Assembly (NCBI GenBank): GCA_000165345.1
Contig: CM000433.1
Span: forward strand, 416,001-480,000
Reading direction: 5' to 3'
DNA: 64,000 nucleotides
This document shows, piece by piece, positions 9,275 through 63,740 of this stretch (the stretch's first letter is position 1; each line of letters begins with the position of its first letter). The notes under the pieces are model-generated. The model had not been told where the DNA came from and did not search any database. It worked only from the letters and a program-made list of their open reading frames with translations. The translations under genes were made by a program, and so were the position numbers.

Positions 9275-9503
9275 TATATAGAAATTTGAAATTTAGTTGC
9301 AAGCTATCCCATAAACTTCAAAATTGTTTTTTGTAAAACCGTTCATTTTTTTATCTAAAAATGTTAAAGGCAAAAATGACAGTGGCGCCTAAATTGTAGA
9401 GCATTATTACTTAACTAGAATAAGAAAAGCGATCCAGTAAACATTAATTGATGTTATATATAAACCTTTAAAGTATTTGGGCATCTAAGGTATTGTTTTT
9501 CAG

Positions 9504-11576
9504 ATGGCTCGTAGTGTTTTAAATAATAGATTGACTGCCTTATACTCTAAAGAAGGTATTACAAACAAAACAGTTGAGAAAAGTGAACAGGAAAGAAAAT
9601 TAGATGAAAAAGATGACTATAGTGAAAAAGAAACCAGAAAAAGAATTAAAAAAAGCGTTAGAGATATTCTTAATGAGGAGTTTGGCGTTGAATCAGATGG
9701 TTTAGGTAATTTGAGTCAAAATTTTTCTTTTGAGAATCCACCTAAACTTTCACTTAAAGATATTGCCGGAATAGAAAATATTATTAGAGACATCGAAGAG
9801 TTTGTTATTAGACCACTTAAACTTCCAGATATTTATAGGGCTGTAGGGGTTAACTCTCCATGCGGAGTTTTGCTTCAGGGTCCTCCAGGAACAGGGAAAA
9901 GTTACCTTTCCATGTGTATAGCAGGGGAACTTGGTCTTCCATTTTTCAAACTGTCTGGGCCGAACATAATTAATGGTGTTTCTGGAACATCTGAAGCATC
10001 TTTAAGAAAACTTTTTGATGATGCAATAGAGATGGCACCATGTTTAATTATAATTGATGAAATTGATATTGTTACTCCAAAAAGAGAAGGAAGTAATAGA
10101 GAAATGGAAAGACGACTAGTATCACAATTTGCTAACTGCTTAGATAAAATTTCAGGCAAATTTGTTGTTGTTGTTGGAACCACAAGTCGTCCTGATTCGA
10201 TAGATCCAATAATCAGAAGAAATGGGAGAATGGACCGTGAAATTTCAATGCCTATGCCCGATGAAAATGCAAGGAAGGATATTCTACAAGTTTTATGTAA
10301 AGAAGTTAATCTCAGAAATGATGTTGATTTTAGGGAGATTTCAAGGAAAACGCCAGGATTTGTGGGGGCAGACTTGAAAACTTTAATAAATGAAGCAGCT
10401 TTAATTAGAGTAAATAAGCTATATAAAAGGTTTAAATTGGATAATAACGCTATGGATTCCCAGAGTACTCTATCCTTTGATTTACAAATTCCAGATAATC
10501 AAGCAATTCCTGAGATTGTAGAAACGCCTTCTGAAATGACAGATGGAGGACAAACAAACACTACTTTGCTGGAAAAACCCATACCAAATTATTCAAACTT
10601 TGACTTGAGCTCATGTCTTGTATCTCATGAAGATATTTTAGAGGCTCTAGAAAATGTAACTCCGAGTTCAAGAAGAGAAGGTTTCACTACAATTCCAGAT
10701 ATTTCATGGGAAAATGTTGGTGCCTTAAACGAATTGAGAGTTGACCTAGAGCTTAGAATTATTTCGCCAATAAAAAACTCGCATATATATGATAGATTTG
10801 GTCTTGAAACTCCGTCAGGAGTTCTACTATATGGCCCCCCTGGATGTGGTAAAACCCTCTTGGCGAAAGCGATTGCTAAAGAAAGTGGCGCAAACTTCAT
10901 AAGTATTCGTGGTCCGGAACTACTTAACAAATACGTAGGCGAGTCAGAAAAGGCGGTGAGAACTGTGTTCGAGAGAGCTAGGGCTTCTGCTCCTTGTATT
11001 GTCTTTTTCGATGAACTAGATTCACTATGCGCAGCAAGAAGTAGCGAAGGAAATGGCGCAACAGAAAGAGTTGTAAATCAACTACTTACTGAATTGGATG
11101 GAGTAGGAGAGAGACGAAAAGTATTTGTCGTCGCTGCTACGAATAGACCAGATATTATTGATCCTGCTATGATGCGCCCTGGAAGGCTGGACAGAATTAT
11201 TTATGTTCCACTACCAAATGAAATGGGGAGACTTGATATTTTAATGAAAGTTTCCAAGAAGACTCCTTTGGCAAAAGATGTTGACCTAAGAGTAATTTCT
11301 AAAAATACACAAGGGTTTTCTGGAGCAGATCTATCACAACTTATTCGAGAAGCAACATTAAAGGCTTTGGACAAACTAAGAACAAATGATAGCTCTATTT
11401 TTTCTAGCAATGATGATTTTGAGTCTAGAATAAGTAATATTTCCGGTATTGTTACACAAGATTTACTAATGAGCGTAATTTCTGGAATGAAACCTTCTGT
11501 TAGAGAAGAACAGATCAACTTCTTTGAAAATTTAAAACTTGGGCAGAAGCTAACTTCTAGCTATTCAAATTTTTAG
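9504..11576 (+). CDS. Type-II AAA+ ATPase with two AAA domains, NVL/Rix7-like, 690 aa
   Basis: Walker A motifs GPPGTGKS (D1) and GPPGCGKT (D2), Walker B IIDEID/FFDELD, and SRH regions with RPGRLDR. A short Lys-rich N-terminus and an acidic D1-D2 linker suggest NVL/Rix7 rather than Cdc48. The subtype is uncertain. Confidence 0.85.
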
Positions 11577-11900
11577 TATTAAAATATATTAAATTTTTAT
11601 ATGAATTGAAATTGTTTGATTTTTTGTTATCTAATTTACATATATCTGTTATTTGCAGTGATTACTTTTTTTTTTGACATTTTTTTTTGTTAATATGCGT
11701 TGTAGTGGTTATTGCATGATTTCTTTTTGCACACATACGGAATTTAGTTATTTAAGAGGATAGAAAACTTAATACTAGAAATTTAGTTGGAAGATAAATA
11801 ATGAAAAATTAAAGCGATTATAATTAAGTATAGTATTTAAAAAGAAATTAGTTAAGTTTAATATTAAATAAATTACATCATAAATATCAAAGAAAAAGAA

Positions 11901-13142
11901 ATGAGGAATTTCGTAATACTTAAAATTATTCTCTTTAGTTTTCTTGATTTAATTTATTCTCAAGTTAATATTATGACTGACGAATACAGAATCAAAATAT
12001 TAAATATGCATAACGAATTAAGGGCTAAAGAAGCTTCTAGTGCAACATATATGATTAAGTTAGCCTACGATTATTCTCTGGAGGGATATGCAGCTAACTG
12101 GGGAATGAAGTGTATGAATGGTCAATTCCAGCATTCCCCACAAACTTGGCCAAACAGAGCTAGTCCTGGTGAAAATTTGTATGCAAGCAGCATTGACGTG
12201 TCTAAATTATCTTCTTGGGATCCTTCAAATGTAGTAAAAAGTTGGTGGGATGAAAGAGAACATTTCAATTGGAAAATGGGGGTGCCTGAAGGAGGATATC
12301 CTGTTGGACATTGGACACAGGTTGTGAGGGCAGCAGCAAGCACTGTTGGCTGTGCTGTTATTGTTAGATGCCCTGGATCTTGGAAGACTTATGTAATTTG
12401 CCATTATGACTTTGGAAACCTCGGCTATATTCCTTATCCAAATTTTAAAGTGGACAAAAGCTTGCCTCAAAAACCATGTTCTCAATGTCCAAGTGGCTAT
12501 AACTGTTGTGAAAATAATCTTTGTGTTGGAATTATTAACCCAAAAATTCCTCCTCCCGGAGAATTACCAATAAAATCTGGTAACGGAGCTTGTGATGATT
12601 ATATGAAAAGATTGTGTAGTATAAGAAATGGGGCATGCCCTCAATCTTGCCTTGATTTGGAATACCCCACTATTAAGAAAGGCTTAATCGTTCAGCAGTG
12701 TACCTGCATTGAAGGAGAATCTGTTTCTCCAACAATGGCATGGCAATTTAAGCTATGGTATAACCGTGGCAATTGCTCTAGGGTTAAAGGAAATGATGGC
12801 TCTTCGTATTCAATGAAAGGATTGGTGGATTCTGGAGTTGCTAAAATAGGAACTCATGATTTAGATATTGACGTTAGCCTAAAAAATAGGAATGAGTTAA
12901 AGAAAATAGGTACAAATAGGTTTGCGAGAGATTTAAGTTTTATGGATGAAGCTCATGTTGACATTAAACATGGGCCTGGATTGATTGCTGATATTTCAAC
13001 TGAACAAGATAATAGAGAGAACAATATTCCTACAAAGGGCGACATAAATTCTACAAGTAACCTTGAACATTTTCCAAGTTATTCTAATAGTCTGGCAAAG
13101 ATCCGTAACTTATCTAATGGTGAAAGAGAGGCAATTATGTGA
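11901..13142 (+). CDS. Secreted CAP/SCP/PR-1 domain protein with a Cys-rich C-terminal extension, 413 aa
   Basis: N-terminal signal peptide (MRNFVILKIILFSFLDLIYS). CAP motifs GENLY, HWTQVV and CHYDFGN. A C-terminal cysteine-rich region follows. Confidence 0.8.
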   Translation: MRNFVILKIILFSFLDLIYSQVNIMTDEYRIKILNMHNELRAKEASSATYMIKLAYDYSLEGYAANWGMKCMNGQFQHSPQTWPNRASPGENLYASSIDVSKLSSWDPSNVVKSWWDEREHFNWKMGVPEGGYPVGHWTQVVRAAASTVGCAVIVRCPGSWKTYVICHYDFGNLGYIPYPNFKVDKSLPQKPCSQCPSGYNCCENNLCVGIINPKIPPPGELPIKSGNGACDDYMKRLCSIRNGACPQSCLDLEYPTIKKGLIVQQCTCIEGESVSPTMAWQFKLWYNRGNCSRVKGNDGSSYSMKGLVDSGVAKIGTHDLDIDVSLKNRNELKKIGTNRFARDLSFMDEAHVDIKHGPGLIADISTEQDNRENNIPTKGDINSTSNLEHFPSYSNSLAKIRNLSNGEREAIM

Positions 13143-62255: not shown

Positions 62256-62717
62256 GTTTCTTAATTTTGTTATAACCAAACTTCCAAAAGAGATTTCATA
62301 ATTGGTAAAAGAGATAAAGGCTCTTTCATTGATTTATTCTTTTTTATAGATTCTGAATATTCTAAGATTTATTTACTAAATAGTTAGCTATTTAATATTA
62401 ATTAGAAGCTGGTTTTAGTTTAATAAATTTCTAATTGACTTTTTCTCAATTTTCTTTTTAGTTTTAAAATCACTAAATGACTATTTGTTTGGATTTTGAA
62501 AAGAGACAAGTTGTGTTATCTATAGGTTGAAATATATTATAAATCTATTATAAGCTAAGATTGAAAATTATAGAATAGTCTAATGAAGAATATCTAATTA
62601 ATGTTATTAAAATAACATTAATTAATAACATTAATTTATTTTCTTATTTATTAATGTAATAAATCCATTTAAATATATAAATCACTTCCTTTATTAAATT
62701 CAAATATATAATTCCCT

Positions 62718-63098
62718 CTATCTTCTATTACCAAAAGAACCACGAGATTTATTATCAAAATTGCCTCCACCTGATAAATTTGTTGTAGATTTATTTCCAA
62801 ATTTAGGACCAGAAATTGGATTCACTCTTGGTGGATTTTGTTTAGGAGTATCATCTATTAATAAGGCATCTAGTGGTAAAGAGTCTGGTAATATAAAGTA
62901 TCTGATAGTATTTCCTCTTACAGTAATTTGAGAAAGACTAACAGGATTTCTGTGTTTTACACTCATTTTTACATTCTTTAAATAAGTATTCATAGACATA
63001 TCCACAGTTACTATTGTTCCTTGAATAATTGTTCCATTCTTTAATTCAATTACTACTGAATTATTGACTAATTTCATAAGGAATCTAATTAGTTTCAT
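62718..63098 (-). CDS. SNRPD1: Small nuclear ribonucleoprotein Sm D1 with a Gly/Asn-rich tail that has few RG repeats, 126 aa
   Basis: [46 protein letters not shown]...[23 protein letters not shown] is almost colinear with human SmD1. The tail [17 protein letters not shown] replaces the canonical (GR)n. Confidence 0.85.
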
Positions 63099-63740
63099 TT
63101 TTCTTCTACTGGTATTGTGAATTAACCAAATCTATATATACTCTTAATTTAACTTAAATAAATTTACATTTAAAAACAAATAAATATTTAATATATCAAT
63201 GTATAATGTACTTCACAATGCTCATAAATTTATAATAAATATCATAACTGATTATGAATTTACTAAAAATGATCCCAATTAATCAAATTGTATTATTTTG
63301 ACTAAATAAAAAGTAATCAAATTTCAAGAATTATGAGGGAAATTAAATTATATTGAAATTTAAGTTTATTTAAATAATTTGAATTGTTTCTTTATTATAT
63401 AAATATATTATATTAAATATATATTTTTTATATATTGAAATATTTTTTTCTTCTAATTTAACATTGTAAATATTTTCATTTAACGCCAATAAATGAGGGG
63501 GGTAACTGCCGGTATAGGCGCCAAAAGTGTGTAGTTTTTATTATTAATCACAAAATTATTAAATAAAAAAATAAATTTTAAATTGAAATATTAAAACAAT
63601 TTAAGTATTCCACACAATAAATAAAATCTTCATTATATTAATAATAGTTGTAATAAAGTAAAGGGGGAAACAACAAAGTTGAATTAAATTTATGCATTTA
63701 TAATAAAGTCCATCTAGGTTTTGAGAATATAATAATAAAG

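What the first reader, a model, noticed from the sequence alone, without database searches (positions are those of the whole stretch)
9275..63530. E2F/DP-type GGCGGGAAA / TGGCGCCAAA motifs in about ten promoters; divergent RIO1 and NVL/Rix7 genes share one
GC-rich E2F-like cores stand out against the AT-rich spacers: 9383 (RIO1 and AAA-ATPase, 229-bp shared spacer), 15309 (DPM1 and FHA; here the site is embedded in the perfect palindrome GGGAATTCCC), 20141, 46236, 50715, 56261, 58567 (full TTTGGCGGGAAA), 61487 and 63517. RIO1 and the NVL/Rix7-like AAA ATPase both act in ribosome-subunit maturation and are arranged head-to-head, which suggests coordinated growth-dependent control. The rpS13 promoter and the SmD1 promoter additionally share a CCGGTATA element next to the GGCGCCAAA site, at 61443 and 63508.
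Basis: partly seen in the sequence, partly recalled or inferred. Interest (0 to 1): 0.55.

Follow-up and report, generated by a model that had tools for sequence, protein, structure and literature searches.

The report
Known E2F-type promoter motifs in Cryptosporidium
The GC-rich GGCGCC/GGCGGG boxes are real, conserved promoter elements of Cryptosporidium parvum chromosome 5, but they are the E2F-like motif already published as the most common upstream motif in this parasite, so the finding is correct and ordinary.

Summary
The window is Cryptosporidium parvum chromosome 5 (cgd5_1990 to cgd5_2230), by exact protein look-up.

**Observation.** All nine cited sites are present at the stated coordinates. 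There are 22 GGCG[GC][GC]-type cores, 17 of them in the 24% of the window that is intergenic (1.5 expected). GGCGCC and GGCGGG are the two most enriched intergenic hexamers. A strict core occurs in 15 of 21 promoter-bearing spacers and in 0 of 6 convergent spacers.

**Conservation.** Most sites that could be compared across species are conserved. The RIO1/NVL head-to-head pair keeps a 225-248 bp spacer genus-wide, with a central GGCGCC in the four intestinal-clade species compared.

**What is known.** These are motifs 3 (DTTGSCGCCH) and 4 (TTTGGCGGGAAV) of Oberstaller et al. 2013. They were later found in open-chromatin peaks, bidirectional promoters and lncRNA promoters. Binding by E2F/DP has never been shown directly. 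The motif is too widespread to mark a ribosome-biogenesis regulon, so the growth-control inference is untested.

**Side observations.**
- The CCGGTATA element generalises to a palindrome, TRCCGGYA. It is intergenic-only in the window and I did not find it in the literature I could reach.
- C. andersoni uses a degenerate AGCGCC core instead of GGCGCC.
- An unidentified, conserved, structured non-coding block lies at 6870-7200.

The parts
39..47 (-). E2F-like site TTCCCGCCC (GGGCGGGAA on the minus strand). By synteny it lies upstream of the enolase gene, whose ATG is just off the left end of the window.
   Evidence: Enolase is placed by synteny. C. meleagridis keeps TTCCCGCC here. Glycolysis genes share a GGCG-core motif (PMC1779779).
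785..820 (.). GGCGCC (785-790) plus a relaxed TTGGCGGTA (812-820), 220-250 bp upstream of the PH-domain gene ATG at 565 (minus strand).
   Evidence: GGCGCC is conserved in C. meleagridis and C. ubiquitum (aligned) and present in the same spacer in C. xiaoi.
7234..7255 (+). Doublet TTGGCGGTATTATTGGCGGGCG, 540-553 bp upstream of the M60 peptidase ATG. It sits at the right edge of the conserved non-coding block 6870-7200.
   Evidence: The GCGGG core is kept in four species, but C. ubiquitum has GAGCGGG.
7268..9274 (-). RIO1 kinase gene (668 aa).
   Evidence: Pfam RIO1. PDB RIO1 at E=3e-60. Exact match to C. parvum proteins.
9383..9392 (.). TGGCGCCTAA at the centre of the 229-bp RIO1/NVL divergent spacer, 110 bp from the RIO1 ATG and 120 bp from the NVL ATG.
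   Evidence: GGCGCC lies in the same central position in C. meleagridis, C. ubiquitum and C. xiaoi. C. andersoni has ACCGCC and TAGCGCTA there.
9504..11576 (+). NVL/Rix7-like double-AAA ATPase gene (cgd5_2010, 690 aa).
   Evidence: sources name several of the non-Cryptosporidium homologues 'ribosome biogenesis ATPase rix7'.
15310..15322 (+). GGCGGGAATTCCC in the DPM1/FHA divergent spacer, 235 bp and 223 bp from the two ATGs. It is followed by conserved ACATGCA and TGTGGGG boxes. TGCCGGTA lies at 15123-15130.
   Evidence: C. meleagridis and C. ubiquitum have AGCGGGAATTCCCC. C. xiaoi has GGCGGTAAATCCCC.
20141..20150 (.). TTGGCGCCTA, 218 bp upstream of the ATG of a 617-aa gene (19925, minus strand).
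   Evidence: conserved in four species. C. andersoni has TAGCGCCTAGG.
27324..27329 (-). CCCGCC in the DDX60-like/Nipped-B divergent spacer. A relaxed GTGGCGCTAA lies at 27564-27573, preceded by TGCCGGAA.
   Evidence: No cross-species data.
33741..33746 (+). GGCGGC, 160 bp upstream of the ATG of the FCH-domain gene.
   Evidence: No cross-species data.
43607..43617 (.). TGGCGCCAAAA, 317 bp upstream of the ATG of the chromodomain gene (43291, minus strand).
   Evidence: exact match to published motif 3.
46236..46246 (.). TGGCGCCAAAT in the divergent spacer between a 572-aa gene and the ZIP transporter gene.
50715..50923 (+). Two sites, GGCGGGAAA (50715) and TTGGCGGC (50916), 185 bp and 388 bp upstream of the ATG of a 124-aa gene (50530, minus strand).
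   Evidence: Both are present in C. hominis and C. tyzzeri.
56248..56269 (+). Composite TACCGGTAATTCAGGCGGGAAA in the divergent spacer between the 1610-aa repeat-protein gene and the EndoG-like nuclease gene.
   Evidence: Block GTACCGGTAAnTCAGGCGGGAAAAGACACGTAT: the GCGGGAAAAGACACGT part is kept in all six intestinal-clade species. The CCGG core is lost in C. meleagridis and C. felis. C. muris has TTTGGCGCCAAACGTAT and C. andersoni TTTGGCGCTAAAAGTAT at the same position.
58285..58297 (-). TTCCCGCCGTCTC (GAGACGGCGGGAA on the minus strand), 111 bp after the nuclease stop codon and 859 bp upstream of the RRM gene ATG.
   Evidence: Conserved in parvum, hominis, tyzzeri, meleagridis, chipmunk genotype I, L011 and ubiquitum.
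58565..58577 (-). Full TTTGGCGGGAAA on the minus strand, 576 bp upstream of the RRM gene ATG.
   Evidence: the only exact match to published motif 4. Conserved, with one mismatch in C. ubiquitum and two in C. felis.
60606..60614 (+). GGCGCCAAA inside the RRM-protein ORF, 343 bp before its stop codon.
   Evidence: A GCGCC core is kept in all eight intestinal-clade species compared (full GGCGCC in seven) while the flanks vary. It may be an lncRNA or internal promoter (compare PMC7840661).
61441..61510 (+). rpS13 promoter module, 313 bp upstream of the ATG: TACCGGTA (61441), TACCGGCA (61460), GAGACGGCGCCAAACGTATTGTCTTG (61482-61507).
   Evidence: GAGACGGCGCC is conserved out to C. muris. C. andersoni has TAGACGGCGTC. 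The whole module is inverted in C. xiaoi and C. bovis.
61800..62255 (+). 40S ribosomal protein S13 gene.
62718..63098 (-). SmD1 gene.
63507..63525 (+). Composite TGCCGGTATAGGCGCCAAA in the divergent spacer between SmD1 (419 bp away) and the membrane thioredoxin gene cgd5_2230 (224 bp away).
   Evidence: GGCGCCAA and the CCGGT core conserved in six intestinal-clade species. Exact match to published motif 3.

Best explanation
The boxes are cis-acting promoter elements of Cryptosporidium parvum. They belong to the already published 'E2F-like' motif family, with consensus (T)GGCG[GC][CG]AAA.

Most likely they sit in the nucleosome-free centre of short, often bidirectional, promoters. There they would be bound by the parasite's E2F/DP winged-helix heterodimers, which Cryptosporidium alone among apicomplexans has kept. 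Binding would open chromatin or recruit the transcription machinery for the gene on one or both sides.

Shown here: sequence match, strong restriction to promoter-bearing intergenic DNA, central position in divergent spacers, and conservation across species.

Taken from the literature: the genome encodes E2F and DP proteins, and the motif dominates ATAC-seq peaks.

Inferred: that E2F/DP is the binding factor, and that it activates transcription.
For: - The organism is C. parvum chromosome 5.
- 17 strict cores lie in 15.2 kb of 25%-GC intergenic DNA against 1.5 expected. Coding DNA has 5 against 8.1 expected.
- GGCGCC and CCCGCC are the top two enriched intergenic hexamers, ahead of the known AP2 box CATGCA.
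- A strict site occurs in 15 of 21 promoter-bearing spacers (6 of 7 divergent) and in 0 of 6 convergent spacers, Fisher p=0.003.
- The consensus from the 17 sites is GGCG[GC][CG]AAA. There are five exact matches to published motif 3 and one to motif 4.
- Of the 12 window sites with divergent-species data, 9 keep a strict core in at least three other species. The rpS13 site is conserved out to C. muris.
- The RIO1/NVL spacer keeps its length (225-248 bp) genus-wide, with a central GGCGCC in the four intestinal-clade species compared.
- Literature: motif family and ribosomal-protein promoters (PMC3734150); ATAC-seq peaks and bidirectional promoters (bioRxiv 10.1101/2025.01.17.633476); lncRNA promoters (PMC7840661); two E2F and two DP genes (PMC12246861).
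Against: - No ChIP, protein-binding array or reporter data exist for E2F/DP in Cryptosporidium.
- Published E2F expression profiles do not track ribosomal-protein expression.
- The motif occurs upstream of genes with every expression profile, which fits a general promoter element better than a cell-cycle switch.
- Six promoter-bearing spacers lack a strict site: NVL to CAP, CAP to PITH, DNMT2/Elf1, RWD, the 19-bp spacer upstream of the 885-aa gene, and the spacer downstream of ZIP.
- The site at 15310 has a one-base core change in C. meleagridis and C. ubiquitum.
- C. andersoni has no strict core at all in 9.7 kb of intergenic DNA.
- My windowed conservation test was only moderately significant and depended on the alignment.
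Confidence: 0.75

Rival explanations
1. The boxes are functional promoter elements, but a factor other than E2F/DP reads them (for example another winged-helix, zinc-finger or ApiAP2 protein). They would act as a constitutive core-promoter or nucleosome-excluding element rather than an E2F-type regulatory switch.
For: - The motif is nearly universal and independent of expression timing (161 of 200 clusters).
- It takes a central position in bidirectional spacers.
- Binding by E2F/DP has not been demonstrated.
- The core drifts to AGCGCC/GGCGCT in C. andersoni.
- Fixed neighbours (TRCCGGYA, GAGAC, ACGTAT) suggest a multi-protein promoter module.
Against: - The consensus matches the canonical E2F site closely, including the asymmetric GGCGGGAAA form and the T/A flanks.
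- Among apicomplexans, only Cryptosporidium has both E2F/DP genes and this motif.
- The tested ApiAP2 domains bind other motifs.
Confidence: 0.17
2. One reading: the motif marks a growth-dependent ribosome-biogenesis or translation regulon that ties together RIO1, NVL, rpS13 and SmD1.
For: - RIO1 and NVL are head-to-head with one shared central site in the four intestinal-clade species compared, and the head-to-head arrangement itself holds genus-wide.
- NVL falls in expression cluster 62 with a Noc3-like pre-ribosome export gene.
- E2F-like motifs are over-represented upstream of C. parvum ribosomal-protein genes.
- rpS13 and SmD1 share the TRCCGGYA-plus-GGCGCCAAA arrangement.
Against: - In this window the same motif also sits upstream of enolase, a PH-domain gene, an M60 peptidase, DPM1, FHA, a DDX60-like helicase, Nipped-B, FCH, a chromodomain protein, a ZIP transporter and an EndoG-like nuclease. 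It is therefore not specific to ribosome biogenesis.
- Clusters carrying the motif peak at any time point.
- Cluster data for RIO1, rpS13 and SmD1 could not be retrieved.
Confidence: 0.07
3. Chance clustering of GC-rich words, or a compositional artefact.
For: One segment of the window is GC-rich (52-54 kb at 57% GC, a proline/alanine repeat gene). The single palindrome GGGAATTCCC is only marginally unexpected (0.06 expected).
Against: - Enrichment is about 11-fold in the most AT-rich fraction of the window, while coding DNA shows none.
- No shuffle reached the observed counts.
- Sites are conserved in position across species whose flanking DNA has diverged.
Confidence: 0.01

Closest known systems
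E2F-like motif family of C. parvum: motif 3 DTTGSCGCCH and motif 4 TTTGGCGGGAAV (Oberstaller, Joseph & Kissinger 2013, PMC3734150; first noticed by Bankier et al. 2003)
   Same: Same organism, same sequences (five exact matches to motif 3 and one to motif 4) and same upstream location. Ribosomal-protein and glycolysis promoters are included in both.
   Different: Nothing essential differs. This window is simply a local sample of the published genome-wide pattern. The additions here are site-by-site conservation across 10 or more Cryptosporidium species and the spacer-class analysis.
E2F motif in sporozoite ATAC-seq peaks, bidirectional promoters and lncRNA promoters (Xiao et al. 2025, bioRxiv 10.1101/2025.01.17.633476; Li et al. 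2021, PMC7840661)
   Same: One central site per short divergent spacer (RIO1/NVL, DPM1/FHA, SmD1/cgd5_2230 and others). There is also a conserved site inside the 3' part of an ORF (60606), which fits lncRNA promoters biased towards the 3' ends of genes.
   Different: Chromatin accessibility and transcripts were not examined here for these particular loci.
Canonical E2F/DP binding sites of animals and plants (TTTSGCGCS; Arabidopsis TTTCCCGCC/TTTGGCGGG)
   Same: A GC core with T/A-rich flanks, in both the palindromic GGCGCC form and the asymmetric GGCGGGAAA form.
   Different: - In model organisms the sites mark a restricted cell-cycle and DNA-replication regulon controlled through Rb-family pocket proteins.
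- In Cryptosporidium the motif is upstream of most genes, most partner proteins are absent, and binding is unproven.
[quoted passage not shown]
   Same: A conserved, positioned multi-element module upstream of a ribosomal-protein gene. The rpS13 module includes TATGCA next to the E2F core.
   Different: The central element here is E2F-like rather than a G-box or a TGCATGC box. [quoted passage not shown]

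Membership tests
E2F/DP binding site | Sequence matches the TTTSGCGCS / GGCGGGAAA consensus | tested here: met
   17 intergenic sites give (T)GGCG[GC][CG]AAA.
E2F/DP binding site | Located in promoter regions rather than coding or 3' regions | tested here: met
   17 of 22 cores lie in the 24% of the window that is intergenic. 15 of 21 promoter-bearing spacers have a site against 0 of 6 convergent spacers.
E2F/DP binding site | Purifying selection on the site (phylogenetic footprint) | tested here: met
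   Conserved blocks around 9384, 20143, 56261, 58287, 58570, 61487 and 63517. The formal window test was only moderate. The site at 15310 has a one-base core change in two species.
E2F/DP binding site | The organism encodes E2F and DP DNA-binding proteins | not tested
   Taken from the literature only: two E2F genes (cgd1_1560, cgd6_1430) and two DP genes (cgd7_3650, cgd8_1850). None lies in this window.
E2F/DP binding site | Direct occupancy or binding by E2F/DP (ChIP, CUT&RUN, protein-binding array, EMSA) | not testable with these tools
E2F/DP binding site | Target genes show cell-cycle or growth-linked co-expression | tested here: inconclusive
   Only cgd5_2010 (cluster 62), cgd5_2040 (cluster 37), cgd5_2190 (cluster 51) and cgd5_2230 (cluster 54) were retrievable, and they fall in four different clusters. 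The literature reports motif-bearing clusters peaking at any time point.
C. parvum published motif 3 / motif 4 (Oberstaller 2013) | Match to DTTGSCGCCH or TTTGGCGGGAAV upstream of a C. parvum gene | tested here: met
   Exact matches to motif 3 at 20140, 43607, 46236, 60605 and 63516 (0.35 expected), and to motif 4 at 58567. The other sites are one or two mismatches away.
Bidirectional promoter | Head-to-head genes, a short spacer and a single shared central element, with the arrangement conserved | tested here: met
   RIO1/NVL: a 229-bp spacer with the site 110 bp and 120 bp from the two ATGs. The spacer is 225-248 bp in five species and the site is central in four. Transcription from both sides was not tested.

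The most novel reading that the evidence does not exclude

- **Distribution.** It is intergenic-only in the window (6 found against 0.67 expected). Across six Cryptosporidium species it occurs 15 times in intergenic DNA against 2 in coding DNA. Its CCGGTA/ACCGGT core is among the enriched intergenic hexamers in C. andersoni too.
- **Composite arrangement.** In a subset of housekeeping promoters (rpS13, SmD1/cgd5_2230, cgd5_2180/EndoG) it lies 2-38 bp on one fixed side of the E2F-like core. Further conserved flanks (GAGAC, ACGTAT) accompany it. In C. xiaoi and C. bovis the whole rpS13 module has been inverted as a unit.
- **Core drift.** The E2F-like core itself has drifted from GGCGCC to AGCGCC/GGCGCT in the two C. 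andersoni loci examined, and partly in C. muris. That would imply co-evolution of the factor and its site.
Probability: 0.35. Interest if true: 0.35.

Novelty: already known. Interest (0 to 1): 0.15.

Why it matters
It confirms, from a single window and with cross-species footprints, that the E2F-like box is the dominant promoter signal of Cryptosporidium. It also shows that compact head-to-head gene pairs such as RIO1/NVL share one central site. This adds no new biology, because the motif family, its presence at ribosomal-protein genes and its place in bidirectional open-chromatin promoters are all published.

The open question in the field is still whether E2F/DP actually binds and drives these promoters. 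The well-conserved, minimal 229-bp RIO1/NVL spacer and the rpS13 module would make convenient reporter substrates for that test.

The side observations could refine the promoter grammar if they hold genome-wide. They are the TRCCGGYA partner element, the core drift in the gastric species examined, and a conserved structured non-coding block.

Tried and rejected
- **Rfam on the whole window** at gathering threshold, and tRNA scanning: nothing found. The GC-rich boxes are therefore not parts of known RNA genes.
- **Published expression clusters** for RIO1, rpS13 and SmD1: the stored supplementary file is truncated. Only cgd5_2010, 2040, 2190 and 2230 were retrievable.
- **Formal footprint test** (conserved columns in the 8-mer against all 8-mers of the same spacer): scores fell in the top 4-11% for six sites. 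Several others were uninformative because MAFFT misplaced indels or the spacer was too conserved or too diverged. I relied on inspecting the alignments instead.
- **GGGAATTCCC palindrome as an independent element:** one occurrence against 0.06 expected. It is kept in C. meleagridis and C. ubiquitum but not in C. xiaoi. It is best read as the A/T flank of the E2F-like site plus an adjacent C-run, and it is not separate evidence.
- **ACGTAT as a general partner of the E2F-like box:** enrichment across the window is only marginal (20 found against 9.5 expected).
- **Bankier et al. 2003**, the first report of the word, is not held in the library.
- **Identity of the 6870-7200 block:** no Rfam family matched at E<=10 in three species. 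My by-eye comparisons with U3 and RNase MRP/P boxes were unconvincing, because the putative box A is not conserved in C. ubiquitum or C. xiaoi.
- **A first simulation script** timed out and was rerun.

Full report
**Source of the window.** The window is about 30% GC and densely packed with long, mostly intron-free ORFs. The 690-aa AAA ATPase, the 668-aa RIO kinase and the 151-aa rpS13 are exact matches to Cryptosporidium parvum proteins: cgd5_2010, a 'protein with RIO domain', and 40S S13. The ATPase gene lies on chromosome 5 of C. parvum assemblies, for example CP044418.1 at about 447 kb.
- RIO1
- NVL/Rix7-like ATPase
- FHA
- DPM1
- rpS13
- SmD1

**Check of the observation.** Every coordinate given holds the stated sequence. 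The RIO1/NVL spacer is exactly 229 bp, with TGGCGCC at its centre. Counts are far above chance:
- GGCGGGAAA: 3 found against 0.11 expected
- GGCGCCAAA: 5 against 0.13
- TTSSCGSS: 16 against 4.1

No shuffle reached any of these counts.

Defining a strict core as [CG]GCG[CG][CG] on either strand gives 22 occurrences. Seventeen lie in the 15.2 kb (24%) of intergenic DNA, which is only 25% GC. A first-order Markov model predicts 1.5 there. Coding DNA has 5 against 8.1 expected.

An unbiased hexamer scan of the intergenic DNA ranks GGCGCC (7 against 0.15) and CCCGCC (8 against 0.26) first and second. They come ahead of CATGCA/GCATGC, CCGGCA/CCGGTA, CCCCAC and CACACA. The window thus reproduces most of the main published motif families of this organism.

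**Position relative to genes.** I classed the 27 spacers by the orientation of their flanking genes.
- Divergent: 6 of 7 have a strict core.
- Tandem (promoter-bearing): 9 of 14 have one.
- Convergent: 0 of 6 have one (Fisher p=0.003).

Distances to the nearest downstream ATG are mostly 110-420 bp. In divergent spacers the site is usually single and roughly central: RIO1/NVL 110/120, DPM1/FHA 235/223, cgd5_2180/EndoG 199/497, SmD1/cgd5_2230 419/224. The 17 intergenic sites align to (T)GGCG[GC][CG]AAA.

**Conservation.** I fetched the orthologous regions from C. hominis, C. tyzzeri, C. meleagridis, chipmunk genotype I, two unnamed assemblies, C. ubiquitum, C. felis, C. xiaoi, C. bovis, C. andersoni and C. 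muris. Gene order is conserved throughout.

- **RIO1/NVL.** The pair is head-to-head in every species examined, with a spacer of 225-248 bp. GGCGCC sits 110-135 bp from the RIO1 ATG and 104-126 bp from the NVL ATG in C. parvum, C. meleagridis, C. ubiquitum and C. xiaoi, within the conserved context AAAGGCARAAAT.
- **Sites at 20143, 56261, 58287, 58570, 61487 and 63517.** These lie in islands of identity inside otherwise diverged AT-rich spacers.
- **rpS13 site.** GAGACGGCGCC is recognisable out to C. muris. In C. xiaoi and C. bovis the whole module (ACCGGTA, 17 bp, GAGACGGCGCCAAA, TGTCT) is present but inverted relative to the gene. That fits an orientation-independent or bidirectional element.
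- **Site at 15310.** It has a one-base change in the core (AGCGGGAATTCCCC) in C. meleagridis and C. ubiquitum.
- **Formal window-based test.** It was only moderately significant and was sensitive to the alignment.

**What is already known.** Oberstaller et al. 2013 (PMC3734150) listed 'E2F-like' motif 3, DTTGSCGCCH (114 of 200 expression clusters), and motif 4, TTTGGCGGGAAV (47 clusters). They described the family as particularly over-represented in upstream regions genome-wide, including upstream of ribosomal-protein genes. They noted that Cryptosporidium alone among apicomplexans retains E2F/DP factors. The window contains five exact matches to motif 3 and one to motif 4.
- Mullapudi et al. 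2007 found a GGCG-core motif upstream of all glycolysis genes. This fits the site at 39-47, which by synteny lies upstream of enolase.
- Li et al. 2021 found the motif upstream of antisense lncRNAs and proposed bidirectional promoters.
- Xiao et al. 2025 found it to be the dominant motif in sporozoite ATAC-seq peaks, more than half of which are bidirectional promoters.
- A 2025 review notes that very few of these putative regulatory components have experimental confirmation, and that how the parasite uses its E2F factors is unknown.

**Interpretation.** The best-supported account is that these are functional promoter elements in the nucleosome-free centre of compact, frequently bidirectional promoters, most probably recognised by E2F/DP heterodimers.
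- Shown here: motif identity, promoter restriction and conservation.
- Literature-based: the existence of the factors, and open chromatin at the motif.
- Inferred: factor identity and activation.

The same box precedes enolase, a peptidase, DPM1, a helicase, cohesin loader Nipped-B, a chromodomain protein, a zinc transporter and a nuclease in this window alone. Published motif-bearing clusters peak at every time point. The genus-wide conservation of the head-to-head arrangement is the better argument for co-regulation of RIO1 and NVL, but it remains untested. Only NVL could be placed in a published cluster: cluster 62, with a Noc3-like gene.

**Beyond the finding: the CCGGTATA element.**
- There are six copies in the window, all intergenic, against 0.67 expected.
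- Across about 226 kb from six species there are 15 intergenic copies against 2 coding. Orthologous sites are not independent.
- The CCGGTA/ACCGGT core is also among the top intergenic hexamers in C. andersoni.
- In three promoters the palindrome lies 2-38 bp on the same side of the E2F-like core (56248, 61441/61460, 63507). The CCGG core is kept in all six aligned species at 63507 and in four to five of six at the other two.
- I found no description of it in the papers available to me.

**Beyond the finding: core drift in C. andersoni.** C. andersoni has no GGCGCC or CCCGCC in 9.7 kb of intergenic DNA. Its top hexamers are AGCGCC, GCGCCA and GCGCTA, and they sit at the equivalent promoter positions. 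C. muris is intermediate.

**Beyond the finding: a conserved non-coding block.** Positions 6870-7200, between the M60 peptidase gene and RIO1, contain no ORF longer than 33 aa.
- The block is 96%, 90% and 75% identical to C. meleagridis, C. ubiquitum and C. xiaoi. Sub-blocks are recognisable in C. andersoni.
- It folds into long helices. Thirteen pairs show changes on both sides, against 3.9 +/- 1.5 in shuffles and 2-4 in slid controls.
- It matches no Rfam family.
- It may be an unannotated structured RNA or a structured leader of the M60 gene. The E2F-like doublet at 7234-7255 abuts it.

**Verdict.** The interpretation as E2F-type promoter motifs is right but already published. The regulatory inference is untested, and the motif is too widespread to support it. 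Interest is low.

Noticed in passing
window 6870-7200 (orthologues L025:7364-7722, L026:7302-7623, L027:7370-7671, L028:5958-6142): A non-coding block of about 330 nt between the M60 peptidase gene and RIO1.
- It has no ORF longer than 33 aa.
- It is far better conserved than any other intergenic DNA here: 96%, 90% and 75% identity to C. meleagridis, C. ubiquitum and C. xiaoi, with sub-blocks at 82-90% in C. andersoni.
- It folds into long helices. Thirteen pairs show changes on both sides, against 3.9 in shuffles.
- No Rfam family matches at E<=10 in three species.

It is a candidate unannotated structured ncRNA or a structured 5' leader. Neither its identity nor its strand was determined.
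   Followed up: partly
window 15123, 49457, 56248, 61441, 61460, 63507: The palindrome TRCCGGYA occurs six times in the window, all in intergenic DNA (0.67 expected).
- Across six species it occurs 15 times in intergenic DNA against 2 in coding DNA.
- In three promoters it lies 2-38 bp on the same side of the E2F-like core, and its CCGG core is kept in most of the species aligned.
- It is not among the 25 published C. parvum motifs, and I did not find it in the accessible literature.
   Followed up: partly
L019 and L028 (C. andersoni), L021 (C. muris): In the gastric species C. andersoni the strict GGCGCC/GGCGGG core is absent from 9.7 kb of intergenic DNA. Its place is taken, at the equivalent promoter positions, by AGCGCC/GGCGCT forms (TAGCGCCA, TTTGGCGCT, TAGCGCTA), which are the top enriched intergenic hexamers there. 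C. muris is intermediate.
   Followed up: partly
window 61441-61510; L022 about 9690-9760; L023 about 9660-9730: The rpS13 promoter module (ACCGGTA, about 17 bp, GAGACGGCGCCAAA, GTAYTGTCT) is inverted as a unit relative to the rpS13 ATG in C. xiaoi and C. bovis. The GAGACGGCG flank recurs at 58289-58297 on the minus strand. That makes two copies in the window against 0.02 expected.
   Followed up: partly
window 60606-60614: GGCGCCAAA lies inside the RRM-protein ORF, 343 bp before the stop codon. A GCGCC core, including the rare Ala codon GCG, is kept in all eight intestinal-clade species compared (full GGCGCC in seven) while the flanking bases change. It may be an internal or antisense-lncRNA promoter of the kind reported by Li et al. 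2021.
   Followed up: partly
window 58440-58640: The 969-bp EndoG-to-RRM spacer contains a second long conserved stretch between the two E2F-like sites: TACGCACTTTTGCACATTTCCTTCCGCCATTCA...CCCACCAACGTCCTGTA. It is partly kept even in C. felis. It could be a promoter cluster, a long 5' UTR or a small unannotated gene.
   Followed up: no
window 895-6695 and 9504-14079: - The 885-aa gene and the M60 peptidase gene lie on the same strand only about 19 bp apart, with no motif between them.
- NVL, CAP and PITH follow one another on the plus strand, and their 325-bp and 331-bp spacers have no E2F-like site.
- CAP and PITH are annotated as one fused gene in C. andersoni.
- These are candidates for the polycistronic units described by Xiao et al. 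2025.
   Followed up: no
window 51230-56062 (minus strand): A 1610-aa ORF (cgd5_2180) consists largely of degenerate KKDAPAAPPA proline/alanine repeats. It accounts for the 57% GC island at 52-54 kb. Its length varies between species and assemblies (called products of 1439-1672 aa where the gene is not obviously truncated or split). The repeat generates spurious GGCGGC/GGCGCG cores in other species.
   Followed up: no
window 15330-15375: Immediately downstream of the DPM1/FHA E2F-like site lies a block, TACATGCAAATCTGTGGGGAAAGATATCAAAATTTATGTCAT, that is conserved in four species. It contains an AP2_1-like ACATGCA and a G-box TGTGGGG. Three published motif families therefore cluster within 60 bp.
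   Followed up: no
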